Notes under the pieces: model-generated | Database searches by the model: none | What the model saw: only the letters and a program-made list of their open reading frames with translations | What the model was told of the DNA's origin: nothing | Origin: Candidatus Woesearchaeota archaeon | Lineage (GTDB): Archaea > Nanobdellota > Nanobdellia > Woesearchaeales > UBA10216 | NCBI GenBank assembly: GCA_016185705.1 | Contig: JACPMZ010000007.1 | Location: 107,157 to 171,156, forward strand | Direction of reading: 5' to 3' | DNA: 64,000 nucleotides | In this document: positions 6,234 to 50,267 of the stretch, in pieces | How the letters are laid out: each line of letters begins with the position of its first letter | How positions within the stretch are numbered: position 1 is the first letter of the stretch | Program-made: the position numbers and the translations under genes

Positions 6234-6363
6234 TTGACAAGTTCACGCAGCCTCGCTCTGCTGCTGGCTTCCCTCCCTGCTTTTTCCCCCCCTTGAATAT
6301 TCAGGGGAGGGAAAAAGCAGGAAGAACGGCGGGATAAACGCAGCGGTAAAATGAACTTTTCAA
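6234..6363. mobile_element. MITE-like element family A, copy 1 (TIR TTGACAAGTTCAC ... ATGAACTTTTCAA; internal palindrome)
   Basis: Near-identical copy at 46328-46457 that has perfect 13-bp terminal inverted repeats; intergenic. Confidence 0.6.
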
Positions 6364-6382: not shown

Positions 6383-6522
6383 AATTTCAAGTTAAGTGGC
6401 AAAACCGTCGCATCCTTCCCTGATTTTTTTCTCCCCCCCTTAAAAAATAAGGGGGGAGAAAAAAATCAGCCAAGCAGGCATCGGCAAGCTCAGGATTGCA
6501 GGACACACAACTTGATATTACC
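6383..6522. mobile_element. Repeat element family B, copy 1 (contains palindrome CTGATTTTTTTCTCCCCCCC-TTAAAAAATAA-GGGGGGAGAAAAAAATCAG)
   Basis: Copies at 11585-11688 (same orientation) and 41752-41893 (reverse orientation). Confidence 0.6.
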
Positions 6523-7566: not shown

Positions 7567-8085
7567 CTAAGGCAACCTGTCCAGCTGCCTCATCATGTAA
7601 TCGCCTTCGCTGGAATCCAGTGTTTTGTCTTCGTCGTTAATGGTGAGCGGCTTTTTCTCATTCTTCTGAAACCCGCCGATGTTCCTGGTTTGTTCCTTCA
7701 GCTGCAGCTCAATTGTTGACAAGTCGTCTTCTGACAAGCGCTTGGGAGCCCAGTTGAAGCCCATGCCGTCGTTTTCTGAGCGGGGAATAATGTTTATGGC
7801 AAAATGGGCAATTTTTTGGCCTGCTGCCAGGCCGTTTTCAATTATTATGTTTGTGCCGTGCACCCTTAATGTTTCGAAAATAGACGTGGAAACTGCGTTT
7901 GCCACGCTGAAAAGATGCCCGGCAAGAAAATCAGGAACCTGCTCCAGAATGGTCAGGTGGTCCTTGGGCAGCACCAGAACATGCCCGAGGCTGGCCGGCT
8001 CAGGGCTCAGAGCAACCACTACCCTGTCGTCCTCGTAAATGTGAGTGCCGCTTTCAGCAATTTCGCAATAATCACACTTTGCCAT
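7567..8085 (-). CDS. HIT-superfamily protein, degenerate histidine triad (AHFAINIIPR)
   Basis: N-terminal CDYCEI and GHVLVLPKDH motifs typical of HIT proteins; triad reduced to a single His. Confidence 0.65.
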   Translation of the reverse strand: MAKCDYCEIAESGTHIYEDDRVVVALSPEPASLGHVLVLPKDHLTILEQVPDFLAGHLFSVANAVSTSIFETLRVHGTNIIIENGLAAGQKIAHFAINIIPRSENDGMGFNWAPKRLSEDDLSTIELQLKEQTRNIGGFQKNEKKPLTINDEDKTLDSSEGDYMMRQLDRLP

Positions 8086-8770
8086 CTGCCAGCACCCCTG
8101 TCAGCGAATCCAAATCAAACGGTCCAGGATTTTCAGCATCGCTGCTGCCTTTTTTCTTTTTCTTCGCAGTTTTTTTCAGTTTATTGGCAGCGGTTTTGGC
8201 AGGTTTGTCAGAAGCTTTCGGCTTCCCGGTTTTTGGTTTCCCGTCTTTTTGTTCCTTGGCTGGATTATCCCCAACCACCTCTGCCTCTGCTGCCAATTTT
8301 TTGGCAACAACTTTTTTCAGAACACCGGCGACAGCATCCATGTCCTTTTTGTCAAAAGGCCGCGAAGGAACAGCCATCCTGATGTTGTCGCTGTCATTCC
8401 TCGGAATTATGTGTATCATGAAATGAGGCGCACGCTGGCCAGCTGCAACTCCGTTTGCGATGAAAATAGTGGTGCCTTTGCACTGCAGCCCCTTAAGCGC
8501 AGCCTGCGAAAGCCCCTTAGTAACCATGAAAAGATGCTCAGCAAGCTCCTCAGGCAGCTGCGGCATCACAGAAAAATGCTCCTTCGGCATCAGCAGAATG
8601 TGCCCCTTAGCAGCAGGGTTGATGTCAAGCACAGCTATTGACTCTTCGTCAGAATAAACCTCCTTCGCAGGAACCCTGCCTGAAGAAATCTGGCAGAAAA
8701 CGCAGTTCTGCTTCTGAAAATCAGCGAGCTCCTCAGGACTCATCTGGGAAAGCTCCTCCTCGGTTACCAT
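8072..8770 (-). CDS. HIT-superfamily protein with Lys-rich C-terminal tail, triad PHFMIHIIPR (middle His absent)
   Basis: CVFCQI, GHILLMPKEH motifs; paralog of the downstream gene; 14-nt overlap. Confidence 0.65.
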   Translation of the reverse strand: MVTEEELSQMSPEELADFQKQNCVFCQISSGRVPAKEVYSDEESIAVLDINPAAKGHILLMPKEHFSVMPQLPEELAEHLFMVTKGLSQAALKGLQCKGTTIFIANGVAAGQRAPHFMIHIIPRNDSDNIRMAVPSRPFDKKDMDAVAGVLKKVVAKKLAAEAEVVGDNPAKEQKDGKPKTGKPKASDKPAKTAANKLKKTAKKKKKGSSDAENPGPFDLDSLTGVLADGKV

Positions 8771-9505: not shown

Positions 9506-10077
9506 TTCTTCTGGTTTCTTTGCTTCTGTGATGTCTTTGAGTTTATCAAAGTGCGGCGTCGTTGAAAAGTTGCCTTCACCGCTGCTTTTATTCTGCCTGT
9601 CCTGATTTTCCCCTCCCTTGCTATTTAAGGGAGGGGAAAATCAGTAAGCAAGCCAGCAAAACAACCTGCGCACATGAACTTTTCAATATCGCCTGAGAAA
9701 TAGCTGTGCAAACCACCAAAATTATATATCACTGCACATTCACAACGGCAAGGACACCGGTACGTTGGCAGAGCAGCACCGCGGCTCCTTTCGGGGAGTA
9801 GGCAGCTTTGCCCGCACCGTCCAAACATCACTGCCGTCAGCTTATTTGAGTTCTCTTCATGCCTGCTTTATTTCTCCCTTAACCTTGCAGTATCTCCGCA
9901 ACTGGCGTTTTTCCTGCGCAGTTCGGAGAAAACCAAGAGCTGCTGCAGGCAGAGGTGCTGTAAAAAGCAAGTGACGGGAAAGCGGGCATGGTGAAGGCAT
10001 AGAGGCAGCACACGCAAAACTTTAAATATAGCTGAATACAGTTTCTACTGCAATCATTTGGGGCAAAGAGGTGCAAC

Positions 10078-11584: not shown

Positions 11585-11688
11585 CTGATTTTTTTCTCCA
11601 CCCCTTGAAAAATAAGGGGGGAGAAAAAAATCAGCCAAGCAGGCATCGGCAAGCTCAGGATTGCAGGACACACAACTTGACATTACCC
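11585..11688. mobile_element. Repeat element family B, copy 2 (lacks 5' 30 nt)
   Basis: About 95% identical to 6421-6522. Confidence 0.6.
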
Positions 11689-12392: not shown

Positions 12393-12684
12393 TCCATATA
12401 TAAATAACTTTCTTTACAACTAAATGGTGGTTGCATAAGCTTTTAAAGAGCATGCGGGCGGCGCTGCAAATGTCATTGCCCGCGTTCTCCGGCTGACTTT
12501 AAGCTTCACTTCTGCAGGCGCTTCCTTTTTTCCATCCCTTAAATTGCGAGGGAGGAAAAAAGGAAGCGCGAAGAAAAGCAGTCGCGATGTGAGCGGCAGT
12601 CCTATATACTATATATGCTATCAAATCAGCTATAAAACCTTTATAATAAAGCTTAAATAGGCAGACTGCTCAGATGACAATTTG

Positions 12685-14255: not shown

Positions 14256-14537
14256 GACGGGCTGTGTTGAAAACCTCGCTTCCAGTAACTTTGCCAGTCC
14301 GCTGCCTTTTCATCTTCCCCTAATTTTTAAGGGGAGATGAAAAGGCAGCGGTTGAAAATGTAAGAATCGTGGAAGCGATATGTCACATTTTCAACAGAGT
14401 CTGATAAGACGGTACTTACTCAACTGAACTTTTATCCTCAGCGCATATATCCACCCTCCCTTAACTTTCGTAGGGAGGAGGAAATAGAGCGCAGTTGTGA
14501 GCAAGCGAAGTTGAGCAATGCAGGTACTATAAGAAAA

Positions 14538-21358: not shown

Positions 21359-22243
21359 TCATTTGCAGTAGAATTCCCCAATCAGCTTGTAGACGAGCTT
21401 TGCAGCGGTGAAGTCAGGCGCATGCATTCCGGGTATGGGCATGAATTCCATGACATCAAAGCCAACAACTTTTTTTGCGGAAAGCTTTCTGAGAAATTTC
21501 AGCAGCGTAAACCAGTCAAAGCCGCCGGGCTGCGGAGTGCCGACAGCAGGCATGATGCCTGGATCCAGAGCATCGAGGTCAATTGTTAAGTAAACTATGT
21601 CAGAAAGCTTTGAAATTGCCTCGTCCATCCATCTGTCATCCTGCTTTGCGAGCGTTTCGTGCGCCCAGAATACCGGAATTTTTTCCTTTTCAATGAACTC
21701 TGCCTGGTCATCAGCAAGACTTCTTATGCCTGCAAGCACAACAGGGCACATCTCGTAGCAGCGGCGGGCCACGCAGCCGTGATCCCATTTGCTCCCCCCA
21801 TTCAGGTCTGCCATGTCAGCATGGGCATCAACATGCAGCACGCTTAAGCCGGGATACTTTTCCTTAAAAGCGCGCACAGCGCCGGAAGTGAGCGAGTGCT
21901 CGCCGCCCAGCATTACAAACTTTTTGCCGTCTTCAAGAATTTTTTTCGTTGATTCATAAACGCGATCTATCGTCTGCCTGGCGTCATCCATAATTTCCAG
22001 CTCGTCAAGCGTGCAAATGCCGACTTCAGAAAAATTCTTCTTTGATTCCTCGTCAAAGAACTCCACGACCCTTGACGCTTCAATGATTGCACGAGGCCCG
22101 TCCCTTGTTCCAGGCTTATATGAAGTTGTGCCGTCATAAGGCACAGGGAAAATCACAACTCCTGCCCTATCATAGTCCGCGAGTTCGTGCGGCAAGCCAC
22201 CAAAGTTGAAGGGAGCATAAAAATGCGGGTTTTTGACTGCCAT
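21359..22243 (-). CDS. speB: Agmatinase (arginase/ureohydrolase family)
   Basis: GGEHS, DAHAD, IDLDALDP Mn-binding motifs. Confidence 0.85.
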   Translation of the reverse strand: MAVKNPHFYAPFNFGGLPHELADYDRAGVVIFPVPYDGTTSYKPGTRDGPRAIIEASRVVEFFDEESKKNFSEVGICTLDELEIMDDARQTIDRVYESTKKILEDGKKFVMLGGEHSLTSGAVRAFKEKYPGLSVLHVDAHADMADLNGGSKWDHGCVARRCYEMCPVVLAGIRSLADDQAEFIEKEKIPVFWAHETLAKQDDRWMDEAISKLSDIVYLTIDLDALDPGIMPAVGTPQPGGFDWFTLLKFLRKLSAKKVVGFDVMEFMPIPGMHAPDFTAAKLVYKLIGEFYCK

Positions 22244-22274
22244 AAGAAAACAAATGTGCGCTCATTTATAAATT

Positions 22275-22727
22275 TTAATGCGCAGCAAGCCTTGAATATC
22301 TGACTCTTTCCCTGAATGCAATCTCAGCAGATTTCTCCGTGCTTCTTGGATAATGCTTTATGAATTCCCTTCCCCTGTTGATGAAATTCTTCTCCACTTT
22401 TACAGCGCCAAGCATCTTTGTCAGCAAATCAACTGCGTACTTTATGTCGAAATCCTTGCAGGAAAATATGTCAAAAGTTGCGTAACCGTCCTCCGGGAAG
22501 GTGTGGATTGCCATGTGGCTCTCAACCAAAATGACAAAGCCGGTAACTCCGCCGCGGTCGAACGAATCTATGCCCTGGGCTGGAACCGAGGTAACCTGCG
22601 GGTCAGAGAACTTACTCATGCCAAGCTTTTCAGGCATTTCATTAAGGACTCTTGTAACAAAGTGAGAATCTGCCAGCTTATTTCTGTCGCATCCATACAG
22701 GTCCATGGTCAGGTGCGGTCCAAACAT
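22275..22727 (-). CDS. speH: Pyruvoyl-dependent decarboxylase of the SpeH family (AdoMet decarboxylase or arginine decarboxylase paralog)
   Basis: VESHMAIHTFPE self-cleavage (ES) motif; about 150 aa. Confidence 0.75.
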   Translation of the reverse strand: MFGPHLTMDLYGCDRNKLADSHFVTRVLNEMPEKLGMSKFSDPQVTSVPAQGIDSFDRGGVTGFVILVESHMAIHTFPEDGYATFDIFSCKDFDIKYAVDLLTKMLGAVKVEKNFINRGREFIKHYPRSTEKSAEIAFRERVRYSRLAAH

Positions 22728-22887
22728 TTTATCATCATTTTGTTATAATTTTTCTACTATTAAGAATCAGTTCCCTCATCTCTTTTTGATTCATAAATTT
22801 TGTAAACATTGCAGTTGCAACAGTCATATTGCTGATGCCATTTATGAAGTATCTTATATTTAAACTTAACTGTTTTTCATATTACTT

Positions 22888-23793
22888 TCAGAAGAATTCG
22901 TTTACAGAAAGGACAAGCAGCGGGAAAATAATCTGGGCGTCTCCGTAAACTGTGACTGCTTTGCCCCTGACTTTTCCCCATGATTTTGCTTCAGAAGTCG
23001 TAGCGCCTGACAGCGAGCCGTGATACGGCGATGAGCTGTTAATGTATACTGCATAGTCAAGGCCGTTCAAAATGTTTGAAATAATAAGGTGATGCTTTGC
23101 TATTCCGCCGCCGAGAACAATGCCCAAAGTTTTTTCTGCTGCCATGCCCAACTCAAGCAATCTCGAGAAATCTTTTACGGCATCTATTTTAAAGTCAGGA
23201 TTTTTTTGCTGAAAAAAAGCAAGCTGCATGCCGAAAGCGCCGTCAGTTATGCCCGGACAAAAAATCGGGACGCTGTTTTTGCTTGCCCAGTGCAGCAGCG
23301 AGCCCTCGCTTCCAATTCTTTTGCCAATTTCAGAAATCAATTCCGAAACTGCAATATCTTTTTTAACAGCGTAAATTTCGCCGATAGCCTTTTCTGAAAA
23401 CTTTTCAAGGAATTCGTAGCGGTCATTGGGAACAAGTATGTTGCCCATCCTGTTAATGCCCCGGCTGCCCAATTCCTCGTCGTCAGACTCAAAACTGCCC
23501 TGCAGGTATGGCAGCTTGCTTCTGTTAATGTCCTCGTCAATGGTTCCGGAAGTCGTAATAATCGCGTCTACCTTCTTCCTCTTTACCAGGTCAACAAAAA
23601 CGCCGCGCAGGCCTGATGCTGCCATGTTGGAAGTGAAACTCAGAAATGTGAAAGCGTTGTTCTTCTTTGCCTCGGAAAGAATTTCAGCTGCCTCTCCCAT
23701 GTTCTGCGCCTGGAAACCTGAGTCCCTGAACTGCGCCACAAGGTCGGCAGCTTTCATGCCATTGGTTAATCGAATGTCCTTTATTTCTCTCAT
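22888..23793 (-). CDS. dys: Deoxyhypusine synthase
   Basis: Length and C-terminal SEAKSWGKV motif; NAD-binding glycine-rich segments. Confidence 0.9.
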   Translation of the reverse strand: MREIKDIRLTNGMKAADLVAQFRDSGFQAQNMGEAAEILSEAKKNNAFTFLSFTSNMAASGLRGVFVDLVKRKKVDAIITTSGTIDEDINRSKLPYLQGSFESDDEELGSRGINRMGNILVPNDRYEFLEKFSEKAIGEIYAVKKDIAVSELISEIGKRIGSEGSLLHWASKNSVPIFCPGITDGAFGMQLAFFQQKNPDFKIDAVKDFSRLLELGMAAEKTLGIVLGGGIAKHHLIISNILNGLDYAVYINSSSPYHGSLSGATTSEAKSWGKVRGKAVTVYGDAQIIFPLLVLSVNEFF

Positions 23794-24037
23794 AAAGCAT
23801 GCCGCAACTGCCTATGGAATAAAAAGTTTGTGAGAAAATGGCAATCTCAGGCAAACTGTTTTTTTCAGCTGCCTGCCCTCACCTTTTATTCCCTCCAACT
23901 TTTAAGGGAGGGAATAAAAGACGAGAGACAGAACAAGCAAAAGCTGTCATCACAGGAAAAAATCAGCAGGGCTGGCGCAAACCGGAAAGTTTACTTTATG
24001 CAAACATATTTATACCAGATTATTAAAAGTTTTAATA

Positions 24038-24511
24038 ATGAAAGTAGTCGCTGAACAGCCGCTGGCTGAAATAATTCTGAGAAAATACGAGCTGCCTGAC
24101 CATATTAAAGAACGGGAGCTTGTGAAAAAGCTTTGCCTTTCCCTTGGCCTGCTGCAGCCGGGAGATTCGAGGGATGTTGTTGTTGATGTGCTGCACGTGC
24201 TGCTGAAAAACAGGAAAAGGCGAAAGCTGCTTACAGTGTCTGAGATAGAGAAAAAAGTTGTGCAGAACCGGAAGCTGCACAAAGTAGCTATGCTTGGAAT
24301 AGCGTCTTCCAATATACGGCGGCAAATCAAGCGCCTGAGGAACATGCTGATTGTTGAGAAAATCAGGACCGGCTACCGAATCAGCGAGTTCATGCCGATG
24401 CAGCAGCTCTTTGCAGAAAAAATACAGGGATTAATGCTGCCCAACATTGTGCAGCGAATAAACGGATATCTGCAAAGGGCTGATGATGTTTTCTCGGTGA
24501 AGAAGAACTGA
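24038..24511 (+). CDS. Hypothetical protein, possible winged-helix regulator
   Basis: 157 aa, helical; no firm family assignment. Confidence 0.4.
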   Translation: MKVVAEQPLAEIILRKYELPDHIKERELVKKLCLSLGLLQPGDSRDVVVDVLHVLLKNRKRRKLLTVSEIEKKVVQNRKLHKVAMLGIASSNIRRQIKRLRNMLIVEKIRTGYRISEFMPMQQLFAEKIQGLMLPNIVQRINGYLQRADDVFSVKKN

Positions 24512-24737
24512 AGATTTCGTTTCTCTGCCTCGCAATGTTTTTTATCGCCAGCTTCCTTTTTTCCTCCCTTCGCAAAGGTGAGAGAGGGAAAAGGGAAGCT
24601 GGTTTGTTGCTGTGAGAGAGGGCTGCAAAGTTTTGTCGTCTACAAAACAAAAAGCTTTAAATACAGGATAATTACATGAAGAGAAGTCACGACGAGAAAA
24701 GCGTCTTGATGATAAAAAAGATAAGGGGGATGCAAAA

Positions 24738-24968
24738 ATGGCTGAAAAAGTAGCAAAGGTTGGAATAAAGAAGGAAGACGGATACCTGTATTTCGTTGAC
24801 AAAAAAGGCAACGTAGGCAGAGCAAAGATGGTTCGCGGTGGAAGAAAGAAAGGGAAACAGAAACAACAGGTAGTTGCCAAGGTTGGCGTAAAGAAAGCCA
24901 AGGGATACCTTTACTTCATTGACAAGAAAGGGGATATTTCCAGGGCAAAGATGGTGCGCGGGAGATAA
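24738..24968 (+). CDS. Small basic protein with internal tandem repeat KVG(I/V)KK..GYLYF(V/I)DKKG..(G/S)RAKMVRG
   Basis: 76 aa; two 30-aa repeats; A-rich RBS-like stretch upstream. Confidence 0.45.
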   Translation: MAEKVAKVGIKKEDGYLYFVDKKGNVGRAKMVRGGRKKGKQKQQVVAKVGVKKAKGYLYFIDKKGDISRAKMVRGR

Positions 24969-24982
24969 GTCCCGCTTTTTTT

Positions 24983-25624
24983 TTATTTCTTCAGCGATTT
25001 AATCGCAGCCGCAGGATTAGGGCTGCCATAAATGTAGGAGCCTGCCACCAGAATATCAGCGCCTGCTGAAACGGCAAGCTTCGCAGTTTCCTTGTTTATG
25101 CCGCCGTCAACCTGAATTTCTGCGTTTAGATTTTTTGAATCAATCATTGAACGCAGCTCGCGAATTTTCGGCAACACTGACTCAATAAACTTCTGGCCGC
25201 CGAAGCCGGGGTTGACGGTCATGAGCAGAATCATATCCACATTTTCAATGATGCTTTCTGCGCTGGAAATTTCGGTGGACGGATTAATGGCGATTGCAGC
25301 TTTTTTTCCGCTGCTGCCAACCTGCTTAATAGCCGCGTATAAATTCCGGGCTGCTTCAACATGAATTGTAATTGAATCTGCGCCTGCAGCAGAGAACTCA
25401 TCAATGTATTTTTCCGGCTGCTCTATCATCAGGTGGACGTCAAGCTGAAGCTTTGTCACTCTGCGGATGGCCGCCACTGCAGCAGGGCCAAAAGTTATGT
25501 TTGGAACAAAATGGCCGTCCATGACGTCAATGTGCAGCAAATCAGCGTGCTTCTCAACCTTTTTTATGTCGCGCTCAAGATTTGCGAAATCTGCAGACAG
25601 AATGGAAGGCGCAATTTTTACCAT
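24983..25624 (-). CDS. rpe: Ribulose-phosphate 3-epimerase
   Basis: MVKIAPSILSADF start, HIDVMDGHFVPN, MTVNPGFGGQ motifs. Confidence 0.85.
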   Translation of the reverse strand: MVKIAPSILSADFANLERDIKKVEKHADLLHIDVMDGHFVPNITFGPAAVAAIRRVTKLQLDVHLMIEQPEKYIDEFSAAGADSITIHVEAARNLYAAIKQVGSSGKKAAIAINPSTEISSAESIIENVDMILLMTVNPGFGGQKFIESVLPKIRELRSMIDSKNLNAEIQVDGGINKETAKLAVSAGADILVAGSYIYGSPNPAAAIKSLKK

Positions 25625-25705
25625 TCTGCAAATTTCATCACGTCGGTATTTAAAGTTATTGCTTTCAACCCAGTATCTCCGAAACTGCCTTAGTTCCATC
25701 CACTG

Positions 25706-25757
25706 CGCTCTATTTCCTCCTCCCTCGAAATTTTAAGGGAGGAGGAAATAGAGCGCC
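25706..25757. repeat. Perfect 52-bp palindromic hairpin (GCGCTCTATTTCCTCCTCCC-loop-GGGAGGAGGAAATAGAGCGC); right half repeated at 14467-14490
   Basis: Direct inspection; member of the intergenic GC-stem hairpin family. Confidence 0.7.
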
Positions 25758-38300: not shown

Positions 38301-38472
38301 TTGTTTTTTCTATTGCATGTCAGTAGGGCAATGCTGTTCTTAACAGCAACGGCTTTGCAAGCAGAGGGGAAGCAAAAAGAAATCTGGAGATATTTAAAAT
38401 GCTGCACAAGTTGGCGTAAGAATGCGGGCAGCGGAAATCCGATGGTTTCCTGGTCTGCATTTAGTTCGTAAA

Positions 38473-38569
38473 TGCGGGGGACGTGATTCGAACACGCGCA
38501 ACCACTAAGGTACAGGATTGCTTCTGAAACTTAAGTCCTGCGCTTTTGACCAGACTCAGCCACCCCCGC
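38473..38569 (-). tRNA. tRNA-Leu (anticodon UAA) with putative 11-nt intron at canonical 37/38 position
   Basis: 7-bp acceptor GCGGGGG/CCCCCGC, 3-bp D-stem, anticodon stem CAGGA/TCCTG, long variable arm, T-arm GCGTG-TTCGAAT-CACGT. Confidence 0.6.
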
Positions 38570-38792
38570 ATAGCGGCATTGCTTCAGGCATTGTTTATAA
38601 ATTTTTGTGGTGTGTGAAGTCAGCTCCTCAAGTATCTGCCTTTATCCTGCCAACTCAAATTCCAATCCCCCAACTCAATTTCACGCTGCGCTGCTTTTTT
38701 TCCCTCCCCTAAAATTTAAGGGGAGGAAAAAAAGCAGCGGGGACCCTTACATTTGCGAAAGTCTAATAAGCCAGTGCAGTAATTGTGTGTGA

Positions 38793-39810: not shown

Positions 39811-39893
39811 GCCTCTGTAGCTCAGTGGTGGAGCGTTACCTTGGTATCCATACAAAAAGGTAGAGGTCGCGGGTCCAATTCCCGCCAGAGGCT
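39811..39893 (+). tRNA. tRNA-Thr (anticodon GGU) with putative 11-nt intron at 37/38
   Basis: Acceptor GCCTCTG/CAGAGGC, D-arm GCTC-AGTGGTG-GAGC, anticodon stem TTACC/GGTAG, T-arm GCGGG-TCCAATT-CCCGC. Confidence 0.6.
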
Positions 39894-41751: not shown

Positions 41752-41893
41752 GGGTAATGTCAAGTTGTGTGTCCTGCAATCCTGAGCTTGCCGATGCCTG
41801 CTTGGCTGATTTTTTTCTCCCCCCTTATTTTTTAAGGGGGGGAGAAAAAAATCAGGGAAGGATGCGACGGTTTTGCCACTTAACTTGAAATTA
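41752..41893. mobile_element. Repeat element family B, copy 3 (reverse orientation, full length)
   Basis: Reverse complement of 6383-6522; ends 12 bp before a tRNA gene. Confidence 0.6.
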
Positions 41894-44572: not shown

Positions 44573-44809
44573 GAAAACACACCAACGCGGCAATATATAA
44601 ATTTTTTTGGCAATTCAGCATAATAAGATCGCTTTTGTAATATCTATTCTTTACCTCGCACAATAGCGCTGCTTTTTTCCCTCCCCTTAAAATTTAGGGG
44701 AGGGAAAAAAAGCAGCGGTTATCAGCGCAAAGAGGACAGCAGCGTGAATCATTGGCAGGGGAATCAAATACCCAAAAGCTTTATATTTGCATAAAACGCT
44801 TATTAAGGC

Positions 44810-46327: not shown

Positions 46328-46457
46328 TTGAAAAGTTCACGCAGCCTCGCTCTGTTGCTGGCTTCCCTTCCTGCTTTTTCCCTCACCTGAATATTTAAGG
46401 GAGGGAAAAAGCAGGAAGAACGGCGGGATAAACGCAGCGGTAAAGTGAACTTTTCAA
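46328..46457. mobile_element. MITE-like element family A, copy 2 (perfect 13-bp TIRs TTGAAAAGTTCAC/GTGAACTTTTCAA)
   Basis: About 93% identical to 6234-6363; between convergent genes. Confidence 0.65.
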
Positions 46458-50066: not shown

Positions 50067-50267
50067 TTTAAATTCGTCTGAAATACCTCTAATTTTCCCA
50101 CCATGCTCCTCTGCTTCTTAACCACCATCCGATGATTTTTTCCCTACCCTGAAATGTCAGGAGAGGGAAAAAAGCAGCGGGAATAAAAAAGTCCCTTGGA
50201 GCGCTTTGTGCTTAGCGAACAAACAGAAACGGAAAGTCTTATAAATATTTTGCCACGCACTATTGCT

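What the first reader, a model, noticed from the sequence alone, without database searches (positions are those of the whole stretch)
24738..24968. Tiny basic protein made of two 30-aa repeats (GYLYFVDKKGN...RAKMVRG)
The 76-aa ORF encodes KVGIKKEDGYLYFVDKKGNVGRAKMVRGG followed by KVGVKKAKGYLYFIDKKGDISRAKMVRGR. This is an internal tandem duplication of a Lys-rich beta-strand-like unit that I cannot assign to a known family. Its position between a hypothetical regulator and rpe, with a hairpin-family repeat upstream, suggests a small nucleic-acid-binding protein.
Basis: seen in the sequence. Interest (0 to 1): 0.5.

Follow-up and report, generated by a model that had tools for sequence, protein, structure and literature searches.

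The report
Conserved double beta-repeat basic protein
A real, strongly conserved 76-residue basic protein made of two near-identical beta-sheet repeats belongs to a large uncharacterised family shared by DPANN archaea and many bacterial phyla, and its fusions to nucleases and ParB suggest it is a new kind of DNA-binding module, although binding has not been shown.

Summary
Window 24738-24968 (+) encodes a 76-aa, pI 10.5 protein with two ~33-aa repeats (23/31 identical; no shuffle reaches this). It is a real gene: non-synonymous differences are 0.06-0.12 against saturated synonymous sites, and it has its own conserved TATA promoter, Shine-Dalgarno site and terminator. It is annotated only as "hypothetical protein" (Ca. 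Woesearchaeota). The family is large: 1125 clusters at 50% identity and at least 584 species genomes. It spans Woesearchaeota/Nanoarchaeia and at least ten bacterial phyla, at about 70% identity across domains. No Pfam, NCBIfam or PDB family matches, and no structural neighbour was found. AlphaFold (pLDDT 88.9, pTM 0.75) predicts two three-stranded beta-meanders joined by a Lys/Gly linker. Nearly all homologs carry exactly two repeats. The same repeat pair is fused to Mrr, HNH and PD-(D/E)xK-like nucleases, phage ParB, a HIT protein, membrane anchors and histone-H1-like tails. Best reading (confidence 0.55): a new, non-specific DNA-binding module that here stands alone as a candidate nucleoid-associated protein. 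Binding itself is inferred, not shown. RNA binding or another polyanion ligand remains possible.

The parts
24738..24968 (+). Coding sequence of the 76-aa double-repeat basic protein (stop codon included)
   Evidence: ORF list and translation. The sequence is identical to MBI2664378.1, 'hypothetical protein HYX10_03480', Ca. Woesearchaeota. There are 4187 homologs. Against 11 orthologs pN is 0.06-0.12 and pS is 0.64-0.95.
24744..24842 (+). Repeat 1 (aa 3-35): strand 3-6, conserved KVGxKKxxG loop, strand 16-20 (YLYFV), D-K-x-G turn, strand 26-30, then AKMxRGG
   Evidence: Self-alignment, single-repeat HMM and AlphaFold secondary structure.
24843..24866 (+). Lys/Gly/Gln-rich linker (aa 36-43). 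It varies in length and sequence among homologs and has low model confidence.
   Evidence: Alignment A1 has gaps here. pLDDT for the block of residues 31-40 is 59-67.
24867..24965 (+). Repeat 2 (aa 44-76): strands 44-47, 57-61, 67-71, with the same consensus as repeat 1
   Evidence: The R1 and R2 consensus sequences are nearly identical across the family.
24656..24663 (+). Archaeal TATA box TTTAAATA, 82 nt upstream of the ATG, preceded by an A-rich BRE-like stretch (24649-24655)
   Evidence: A box with at most one mismatch, at a similar distance, was found in 29 of 61 archaeal upstream regions examined.
24635..24640 (+). Conserved GTCGTC (CGTCG-type) motif about 17-20 nt upstream of the TATA box, followed by AAAA. 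A related CGACGAG motif recurs downstream at 24690-24696. Candidate regulator site; function unknown.
   Evidence: Promoter alignment anchored on the TATA box and raw upstream sequences. Folding the transcribed part as RNA is not significant, z = -0.33.
24723..24729 (+). Shine-Dalgarno-like AAGGGGG, 8 nt before the ATG
   Evidence: Sequence. GGGGG/GGAGG is conserved at the same place in relatives.
24958..24985 (+). Terminator-like stem-loop (GCGGGAGATAAGTCCCGC) overlapping the stop codon, followed by T9
   Evidence: Terminator scan.
24548..24602 (.). Intergenic palindromic hairpin (22-nt arms, 86% complementary). It is a member of a genome-wide hairpin family and separates the upstream gene from this gene's promoter.
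24038..24511 (+). Upstream 157-aa basic protein, the most frequent neighbour in Woesearchaeota. It shows only weak ArsR/MntR-type HTH similarity.
   Evidence: It sits in the same position and strand in 17 of 62 archaeal loci. Pfam HTH_5 E = 0.044 and PDB MntR E = 0.59.

Best explanation
The gene encodes a stand-alone copy of a previously undescribed nucleic-acid-binding module, most likely one that binds double-stranded DNA without sequence specificity. The module is a pair of ~33-residue basic beta-meanders. Each has the layout strand, KVGxKKxxG loop, aromatic strand YLYF, D-K-x-G turn, strand, then AKMxRGG. The two are joined by a flexible Lys/Gly linker. Both repeats keep the same consensus, so they probably present two equivalent basic surfaces to two equivalent features of a polyanion such as the DNA backbone or grooves. 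The invariant Lys/Arg residues would contact phosphates. The conserved Tyr/Phe/Met residues would either build the small hydrophobic core or insert into a groove. As a small, separately transcribed protein it would act as an architectural, nucleoid-associated protein in Woesearchaeota and in the bacteria that carry it. When fused to nucleases, ParB or membrane anchors, the same pair would serve as the DNA-targeting or DNA-tethering part. Shown here: the gene is real and under strong purifying selection; the repeat pair is the conserved unit; the predicted all-beta architecture is robust; the fusions exist. Inferred: DNA as the ligand, lack of specificity, high abundance, and the roles of individual residues.
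For: The gene is real and constrained. pN is 0.06-0.12 against saturated pS of 0.64-0.95, there are 4187 homologs, and there are 1125 clusters at 50% identity. The pair is the unit: 273 of 280 homologs have exactly two repeats, and all but one of the others have four, six or eight. R1 and R2 share one consensus. The protein is very basic (pI 10.5, 24 K+R in 76 residues) and has no Cys or His. The model is confident and reproducible, with pLDDT 83.5 then 88.9 and pTM 0.67 then 0.75, and the same six strands both times. Several fusions place the pair where a DNA-binding part is expected: (a) an Mrr_cat restriction nuclease in a Woesearchaeota MAG (P0204); (b) an HNH nuclease resembling Type IV restriction enzymes, in a HipA/AbiE defence island (P0234), and a second HNH fusion; (c) a PD-(D/E)xK-like PDC-S18 protein (P0173); (d) ParB N-terminal plus HTH domains in a prophage next to the terminase (P0185), and a second ParB fusion (P0240/P0281). 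Many homologs also carry K/A/P-rich histone-H1-like tails (P0184, P0247, P0190, P0257). A HIT-protein ortholog (48% identical to window ORF 8072-8770) carries the pair where the window protein has a K/P/A-rich tail. The gene has its own conserved TATA promoter, SD and terminator, so it is an independent unit. Two unrelated lineages place it next to DNA-repair genes: HerA plus an Mre11-like phosphoesterase in 9-10 archaeal loci, and UvrA in Omnitrophota-type loci.
Against: There is no direct binding evidence and no homology to any characterised DNA-binding fold. All sequence, profile and structure searches were negative. Fusions are a small minority of the family, and several were seen in single metagenomic contigs. 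Some fusions (OmpA, SLT transglycosylase, DoxX, other membrane proteins) do not point specifically to DNA. Gene neighbourhood is not conserved across the family. A basic beta-sheet with exposed aromatic residues fits RNA or single-stranded DNA equally well. Expression level is unknown.
Confidence: 0.55

Rival explanations
1. It is an RNA-binding or ribosome-associated protein, for example an RNA chaperone or a lineage-specific ribosomal or hibernation factor. Its two basic, aromatic beta-sheets would bind single-stranded or structured RNA.
For: It is extremely conserved, small, very basic and monocistronic with a strong SD. Conserved aromatic residues on a beta-strand are typical of RNP/OB/CSD-type single-strand binders (established knowledge). 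The HIT fusion concerns nucleotide or RNA-cap-type chemistry.
Against: No fusion to an RNA-specific domain (S1, KH, RRM, helicase, RNase) was seen among the architectures examined. The nuclease partners are restriction-type dsDNA enzymes, and ParB is a DNA protein. The gene is never found in ribosomal-protein operons in the loci examined. Its patchy distribution over bacterial phyla is unlike a core translation component.
Confidence: 0.15
2. It binds a non-nucleic-acid ligand or partner, such as anionic membrane lipids, polyphosphate, cell-envelope polymers or a peptide. In that case it works as a WW-like or choline-binding-repeat-like beta-hairpin adaptor.
For: Membrane-anchored and envelope-related fusions exist (TM segments, OmpA, DoxX, SLT). 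The core motif G-x-x-Y-[YF]-x-D-x-x-G resembles generic ligand-binding beta-hairpin repeats from memory. The profile also cross-hits phage-fibre-like repeats (P0165) and propeller blades. Tandem WW domains appear among the non-significant Foldseek hits.
Against: There is no signal peptide or hydrophobic segment in the stand-alone proteins, so they are cytoplasmic. In the OmpA fusion the pair lies on the N-terminal side, before the hydrophobic segment, and so probably faces the cytoplasm. Pfam gives no match to CW_binding, WW or any repeat family at E <= 10. Nuclease and ParB fusions are hard to explain on this reading.
Confidence: 0.12
3. It is a sequence-specific transcription factor, possibly autoregulatory. 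Each repeat would read one half-site, such as the CGTCG/CGACG motifs that bracket its own TATA box.
For: A conserved CGTCG-type motif lies about 17-20 nt upstream of the TATA box, and a related motif lies downstream in many Woesearchaeota loci. A pseudo-symmetric two-repeat protein would suit two half-sites.
Against: About 70% identity is kept between archaea and many bacterial phyla that have unrelated promoters. Use of the pair as a generic appendage on restriction-type nucleases and H1-like tails argues for non-specific binding. The syntenic 157-aa HTH-like protein is an equally good candidate for the promoter motif.
Confidence: 0.08
4. The two-repeat protein is a fragment-type building block that oligomerises into a closed beta-propeller-like or ring assembly. 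Any function would arise from the oligomer.
Confidence: 0.05

Closest known systems
Sul7d (Sso7d/Sac7d) and Cren7, the 7-kDa chromatin proteins of Crenarchaeota
   Same: Both are about 7-8 kDa, monomer-sized, Lys-rich, all-beta or mostly-beta proteins without metal ligands. Those two bind dsDNA non-specifically through a three-stranded sheet with wedge residues (established knowledge). That is the working model proposed here.
   Different: There is no detectable homology: hhalign probability is 0.4% and 0.2%, and there are no Pfam or PDB hits. The predicted topology is two separate three-stranded meanders from an internal duplication, not a five-stranded SH3-like barrel. The distribution is DPANN archaea plus many bacterial phyla, not Crenarchaeota.
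DNA-targeting appendages of Type IV (modification-dependent) restriction enzymes, i.e. the non-catalytic domains fused to Mrr or HNH nuclease domains
   Same: The repeat pair occupies the position of such an appendage in Mrr_cat, HNH and PD-(D/E)xK-like fusions.
   Different: It is not one of the domains I know in that role (SRA, EVE, YTH, winged helix; from memory). Here it mostly exists as a free-standing protein.
WW domain and beta-propeller blade (topological resemblance only)
   Same: These are short antiparallel beta-meanders with aromatic central strands. They are the top, though non-significant, structural hits.
phrog_9154 (phage protein family of unknown function)
   Same: This is the only library profile with a sub-threshold-free match: E = 2.9e-5, covering residues 2-31, about one repeat. 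A phage contig encodes a one-repeat protein (L096).
   Different: The match is partial, the function is unknown, and the family is rare in viruses. There were 2 loci in IMG/VR and none in GenBank phages or in plasmids.

Membership tests
Sul7d (Sso7d/Sac7d) | Sequence membership of the 7-kDa DNA-binding family, detectable by profile | tested here: not met
   No Pfam hit at E <= 10. No PDB sequence or profile hit.
Sul7d (Sso7d/Sac7d) | SH3-like five-stranded barrel capped by a C-terminal helix | tested here: not met
Sul7d / Cren7 (function) | Non-specific dsDNA binding with kinking; high cellular abundance | not testable with these tools
   This needs EMSA or a structure with DNA, plus proteomics.
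Cren7 | Sequence or profile similarity to Cren7 | tested here: not met
   hhalign probability 0.2%. No Pfam hit.
WW domain | Pfam WW profile match with the two signature Trp and a Pro | tested here: not met
   No WW hit for the window protein. The signature residues are absent from the sequence. Tandem WW structures appear only at Foldseek E > 1.
Beta-propeller blade families (Beta-prop_YycP PF27482, YWTD, WD40) | Significant profile match and four-stranded blades closing a propeller | tested here: not met
Choline/cell-wall-binding beta-hairpin repeats (CW_binding_1) | Pfam profile match; about 20-aa period; secreted protein | tested here: not met
   No Pfam hit at E <= 10. The period is 41 aa. 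There is no N-terminal hydrophobic segment. The resemblance of the core motif is from memory only.
phrog_9154 | Profile match over most of the profile | tested here: inconclusive
   E = 2.9e-5, 24.9 bits, but only profile positions 12-41 of 70 are covered, and divergent family members do not match.
The uncharacterised double-repeat family itself (GYLYFxDKxGD[IV]SRAKMxRGG x2) | Two repeats of the consensus, 75-110 aa, basic, full-length alignment to homologs | tested here: met
   60-93% identity over 95-100% of the length to hundreds of proteins. Two repeats are detected by the repeat HMM.

The most novel reading that the evidence does not exclude
This is a previously unrecognised class of nucleoid-associated protein with a fold not represented in the PDB: a pseudo-symmetric double beta-meander. 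It would be a major chromatin component of Woesearchaeota/Nanoarchaeia and of several mostly uncultured bacterial phyla (Omnitrophota, Marinisomatota, Elusimicrobiota and others). It would have spread by exchange between the archaeal and bacterial domains and been re-used as the DNA-targeting module of defence nucleases and phage ParB proteins.
Probability: 0.3. Interest if true: 0.75.

Novelty: new variant of a known kind. Interest (0 to 1): 0.6.

Why it matters
If the module binds DNA, it adds a new structural solution to the small set of prokaryotic chromatin and architectural proteins. It would do so in lineages (DPANN archaea, Omnitrophota, Marinisomatota and others) where nothing is known experimentally about nucleoid organisation. 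The roughly 70% identity between archaeal and bacterial copies is unusual for a non-translational protein. It implies either extreme constraint or recent gene flow between domains among co-occurring small-celled organisms. The family has over a thousand 50%-identity clusters, yet I found no curated domain model and no paper for it, so defining it would annotate thousands of 'hypothetical proteins'. It would also annotate the unassigned tails of some restriction-type nucleases and ParB proteins. At 76 residues with no cysteines, the protein is easy to synthesise and test, and could be useful as a compact DNA-binding tag in the way Sso7d is.

Tried and rejected
- Curated libraries: Pfam, NCBIfam and PADLOC gave nothing for the protein. 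The BaiB hit (17.9 bits against a 650-bit cut-off) and the FaeA hit are noise.
- PDB sequence searches: the single sequence and two profiles gave only chance matches to LRP6 YWTD, a TetR-family regulator and NAC.
- The PF27482 flag on one homolog turned out to be a faint Beta-prop_YycP hit, so it was rejected as a family assignment.
- Homology to Sso7d and Cren7 was rejected.
- A mobile-element origin is not supported. There were no tblastn hits in 50,697 phage or 72,556 plasmid records, and only 2 IMG/VR loci.
- A conserved operon partner was not found. The best neighbour, the 157-aa HTH-like protein, is present in only 17 of 62 archaeal loci, and bacterial contexts differ.
- A structured 5' UTR RNA was rejected (z = -0.33).
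- The upstream hairpin is not a specific regulatory element of this gene. It is one of at least 14 similar intergenic palindromes.
- The antisense 119-aa ORF at 24542-24901 is taken to be spurious, because selection acts on the + strand frame.
- Literature searches by motif strings, by the Pfam accession and by DPANN/chromatin terms found no description of the family.

Full report
**1. The observation.**
Window 24738-24968 (+) is an ATG-initiated ORF of 76 codons. It encodes MAEKVAKVGIKKEDGYLYFVDKKGNVGRAKMVRGGRKKGKQKQQVVAKVGVKKAKGYLYFIDKKGDISRAKMVRGR. The protein is 8.5 kDa with pI 10.5. It has 18 Lys, 6 Arg, 11 Gly and no Cys, His, Trp or Pro. Self-comparison gives one outstanding offset of 41 residues, with 23 of 31 positions identical. 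None of 5000 shuffles of the same composition reached 23; the maximum was 18. At the DNA level the two copies are 74% identical. Second codon positions agree at 94% and third positions at 52%. The duplication is therefore old and maintained at the protein level. The unit is better described as about 33 residues plus a Lys/Gly linker.

**2. It is a real, independently expressed gene.**
The exact protein is in GenBank as MBI2664378.1, 'hypothetical protein HYX10_03480 [Candidatus Woesearchaeota archaeon]'. The neighbouring genes fit an archaeon: agmatinase, pyruvoyl AdoMet decarboxylase, deoxyhypusine synthase, ribulose-phosphate 3-epimerase.

- Selection: against 11 Woesearchaeota orthologs, non-synonymous differences are 0.06-0.12 per site while synonymous sites are saturated at 0.64-0.95. 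This is strong purifying selection in this frame. The longer antisense ORF at 24542-24901 is therefore spurious.
- Promoter: a canonical archaeal TATA box (TTTAAATA, 24656-24663) with an A-rich BRE-like stretch lies 82 nt upstream. A box with at most one mismatch, at a similar distance, was found in 29 of 61 archaeal upstream regions examined.
- Translation start and termination: an AAGGGGG Shine-Dalgarno site precedes the ATG. A GC stem plus T9 overlaps the stop codon.
- Upstream hairpin: the palindrome at 24548-24602 is one of at least 14 similar intergenic palindromes in the window. It is not specific to this gene.

**3. The family.**
The word-indexed search found 4187 homologs. Most are 76-100 residues, 60-93% identical over the full length, and named 'hypothetical protein' or left unnamed. 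The exhaustive profile search found 1125 clusters at 50% identity with E <= 1e-3, of which 407 have E <= 1e-10.

The 80 best loci come from these groups:
- Archaea: Woesearchaeota/Nanoarchaeia. Several are labelled 'uncultured Methanosarcinales', but they share the Woesearchaeota gene order.
- Bacteria: Omnitrophota, Auribacterota, Elusimicrobia, Nitrospirae, Myxococcota, Babeliaceae, Planctomycetia, a delta-proteobacterial 2.98-Mb contig, Fidelibacterota, Neomarinimicrobiota and Pseudomonadota.

The bacterial contexts are genuinely bacterial. They include DAP-pathway genes, PanC/PanD, UvrA, ExbB/ExbD and PilM on contigs of up to 284 kb and 2.98 Mb. Over the repeat cores, archaeal-bacterial identity averages 70%. 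Within archaea it is 74% and within bacteria 73%. These loci were chosen as the best matches to the query, so the figures are biased upward. Even so, there is no visible gap between the domains.

The family is essentially absent from GenBank phages and from plasmids, and rare in IMG/VR with 2 loci.

**4. Architecture.**
Of 280 retrieved homologs, 273 have exactly two repeats, and all but one of the rest have four, six or eight. Repeat 1 and repeat 2 have practically the same consensus across the family:
- R1: KVAKVGvKk.kGYLYFvDK.GdvsrAKMaRG
- R2: kVAKVGvKK..GYLYFiDK.GDiS.AKMvRGG

R1-R2 identity (0.73-0.74) equals R1-R1 identity between proteins (0.73). The two halves are therefore under equivalent constraints, as expected for a pseudo-symmetric module with two equivalent binding surfaces.

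AlphaFold2 with 21 sequences gave pLDDT 83.5 and pTM 0.67. With 141 diverse sequences it gave pLDDT 88.9 and pTM 0.75. The six strands were the same both times: 3-6, 16-20, 26-30, 44-47, 57-61 and 67-71. The linker had low confidence. The conserved K-V-G-x-K-K-x-x-G segment is a loop between strands 1 and 2.

**5. Comparison with known families.**
- Libraries: nothing significant in Pfam-A, NCBIfam or PADLOC.
- PDB by sequence or profile: nothing.
- PF27482: the single flag in the homolog table is a 'faint' Beta-prop_YycP hit.
- Sso7d and Cren7: hhalign shows no relationship.
- phrog_9154: the only library match is to this phage family of unknown function, at E = 2.9e-5 over one repeat.
- Literature: full-text searches by motif, by accession and by topic found no paper on the family.

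**6. Functional evidence.**
The most informative data are the domain fusions found among the best 150 hits of the exhaustive search.

- Nucleases: Mrr_cat in a Woesearchaeota MAG (P0204). HNH with best PADLOC matches to Type IV restriction enzymes, in a HipA/AbiE defence island (P0234). A second HNH protein. A PD-(D/E)xK-like PDC-S18 protein (P0173).
- ParB: ParB_N plus HTH_ParB in a prophage beside DnaB, Dam/RusA and the terminase (P0185). A second ParB protein (P0240/P0281).
- HIT: the HIT-domain fusion (P0262) is a 48%-identical ortholog of the window's own ORF at 8072-8770. That ORF's C-terminal tail is Lys/Pro/Ala-rich rather than a repeat pair.
- Tails: long K/A/P-rich, histone-H1-like tails occur in several homologs.
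- Membrane and envelope partners: TM segments, OmpA, DoxX and SLT.

Gene neighbourhood is not conserved family-wide. Two unrelated lineages nevertheless place the gene next to DNA-repair genes. One has HerA plus an Mre11-like phosphoesterase, in 9-10 archaeal loci. The other has UvrA, in Omnitrophota-type loci. In the window's own clade the commonest neighbour is the 157-aa weakly HTH-like protein upstream, in 17 of 62 archaeal loci.

**7. Interpretation.**
The best-supported reading (confidence 0.55) is that the repeat pair is a new nucleic-acid-binding module, probably for non-specific dsDNA. The stand-alone protein would then be an architectural, nucleoid-associated protein, working like Sul7d or Cren7 without being related to them. 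The gene's reality, the conservation, the two-repeat unit, the predicted fold and the fusions are shown. The ligand, the lack of specificity and the abundance are inferred.

Rivals, with confidences:
- RNA-binding or ribosome-associated protein (0.15).
- Binder of another polyanion, or a protein adaptor (0.12).
- Sequence-specific, possibly autoregulatory, factor acting on the CGTCG motifs that bracket its TATA box (0.08).
- Oligomeric propeller-like assembly (0.05).

**8. Verdict.**
The family is large, shared between domains and uncurated, with no detectable structural relative. I rate it a new variant of a known kind (small basic DNA-binding proteins) with interest 0.6. Simple binding assays on a synthesised 76-residue protein would decide the matter.

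Noticed in passing
window 6273-6324, 6405-6484, 9602-9644, 11585-11634, 12518-12569, 14299-14351, 23878-23925, 24548-24602, 25705-25756, 37002-47, 38689-38739, 41791-41870, 44667-44717, 46367-46418, 50129-50180: There is a family of at least 14 intergenic palindromic hairpins with consensus roughly CGCTGCTTTTTTCCCTCCCCTTAA / TTAAGGGGAGGGAAAAAAGCAGCG. Each arm carries a T-run on whichever strand is read. They occur both after convergent genes and between divergent genes, so they may be REP-like elements or bidirectional terminators.
   Followed up: partly
window 6405-6484 and 41791-41870: These two 80-nt hairpin elements are reverse-complement copies of each other, about 35 kb apart. They are longer than the other family members.
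   Followed up: no
window 24630-24710; same position in L008-L014, L016, L020, L024, L029, L031, L032, L040, L046, L060: A conserved (T)CGTCG/T...AAAA motif lies about 17-20 nt upstream of the TATA box of the double-repeat gene. A related CGACG/CGTCG...AAAA motif lies 25-40 nt downstream, so the two bracket the promoter. This may be an operator for an unknown regulator, such as the syntenic 157-aa protein or the product itself.
   Followed up: partly
window 8072-8770 (-) and 7567-8085 (-): Two adjacent HIT-family genes. The first has a Lys/Pro/Ala-rich, histone-H1-like C-terminal tail. Its 48%-identical ortholog P0262 carries the double-repeat module in that place.
   Followed up: partly
window 21359-23793 (-): A polyamine/hypusine gene cluster (agmatinase, pyruvoyl AdoMet decarboxylase, deoxyhypusine synthase) lies just upstream. 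It keeps the same order next to the double-repeat gene in 7-9 related Woesearchaeota loci.
   Followed up: partly
window 39811-39893 (+) and 38472-38570 (-): Rfam finds two tRNAs, but ARAGORN reports only the 99-nt tRNA-Leu(TAA). The 83-nt one at 39811-39893 is missed, possibly because of an intron or an unusual structure.
   Followed up: no
L009, L014, L017, L019, L020, L022 and other 'TPA_asm: uncultured Methanosarcinales archaeon' loci: Many MAGs labelled Methanosarcinales carry the Woesearchaeota-type gene and, where there is enough flank, the Woesearchaeota gene order (157-aa neighbour, rpe, uppS). The taxonomic labels look wrong.
   Followed up: no
P0165 (1139 aa) and P0121 (886 aa): The family profile also hits long multi-repeat proteins. 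P0165 is a phage-fibre-like protein with GAEVGVDTTTGQLYYVDGSGNWQPV repeats and an Mtd_N match. P0121 is a membrane protein with seven GWFYF/GYFYYVD repeats. It was not resolved whether these are distant homologs or convergent beta-hairpin motifs.
   Followed up: no
L012, L014, L036, L052, L055, L056, L065, L078 (about 100-400 nt from the gene): In one Woesearchaeota subclade the double-repeat gene sits directly beside a HerA-type ATPase (DUF87 plus HAS barrel) followed by an Mre11-like phosphoesterase. On the other side there is a PIN-like 230-aa protein.
   Followed up: partly
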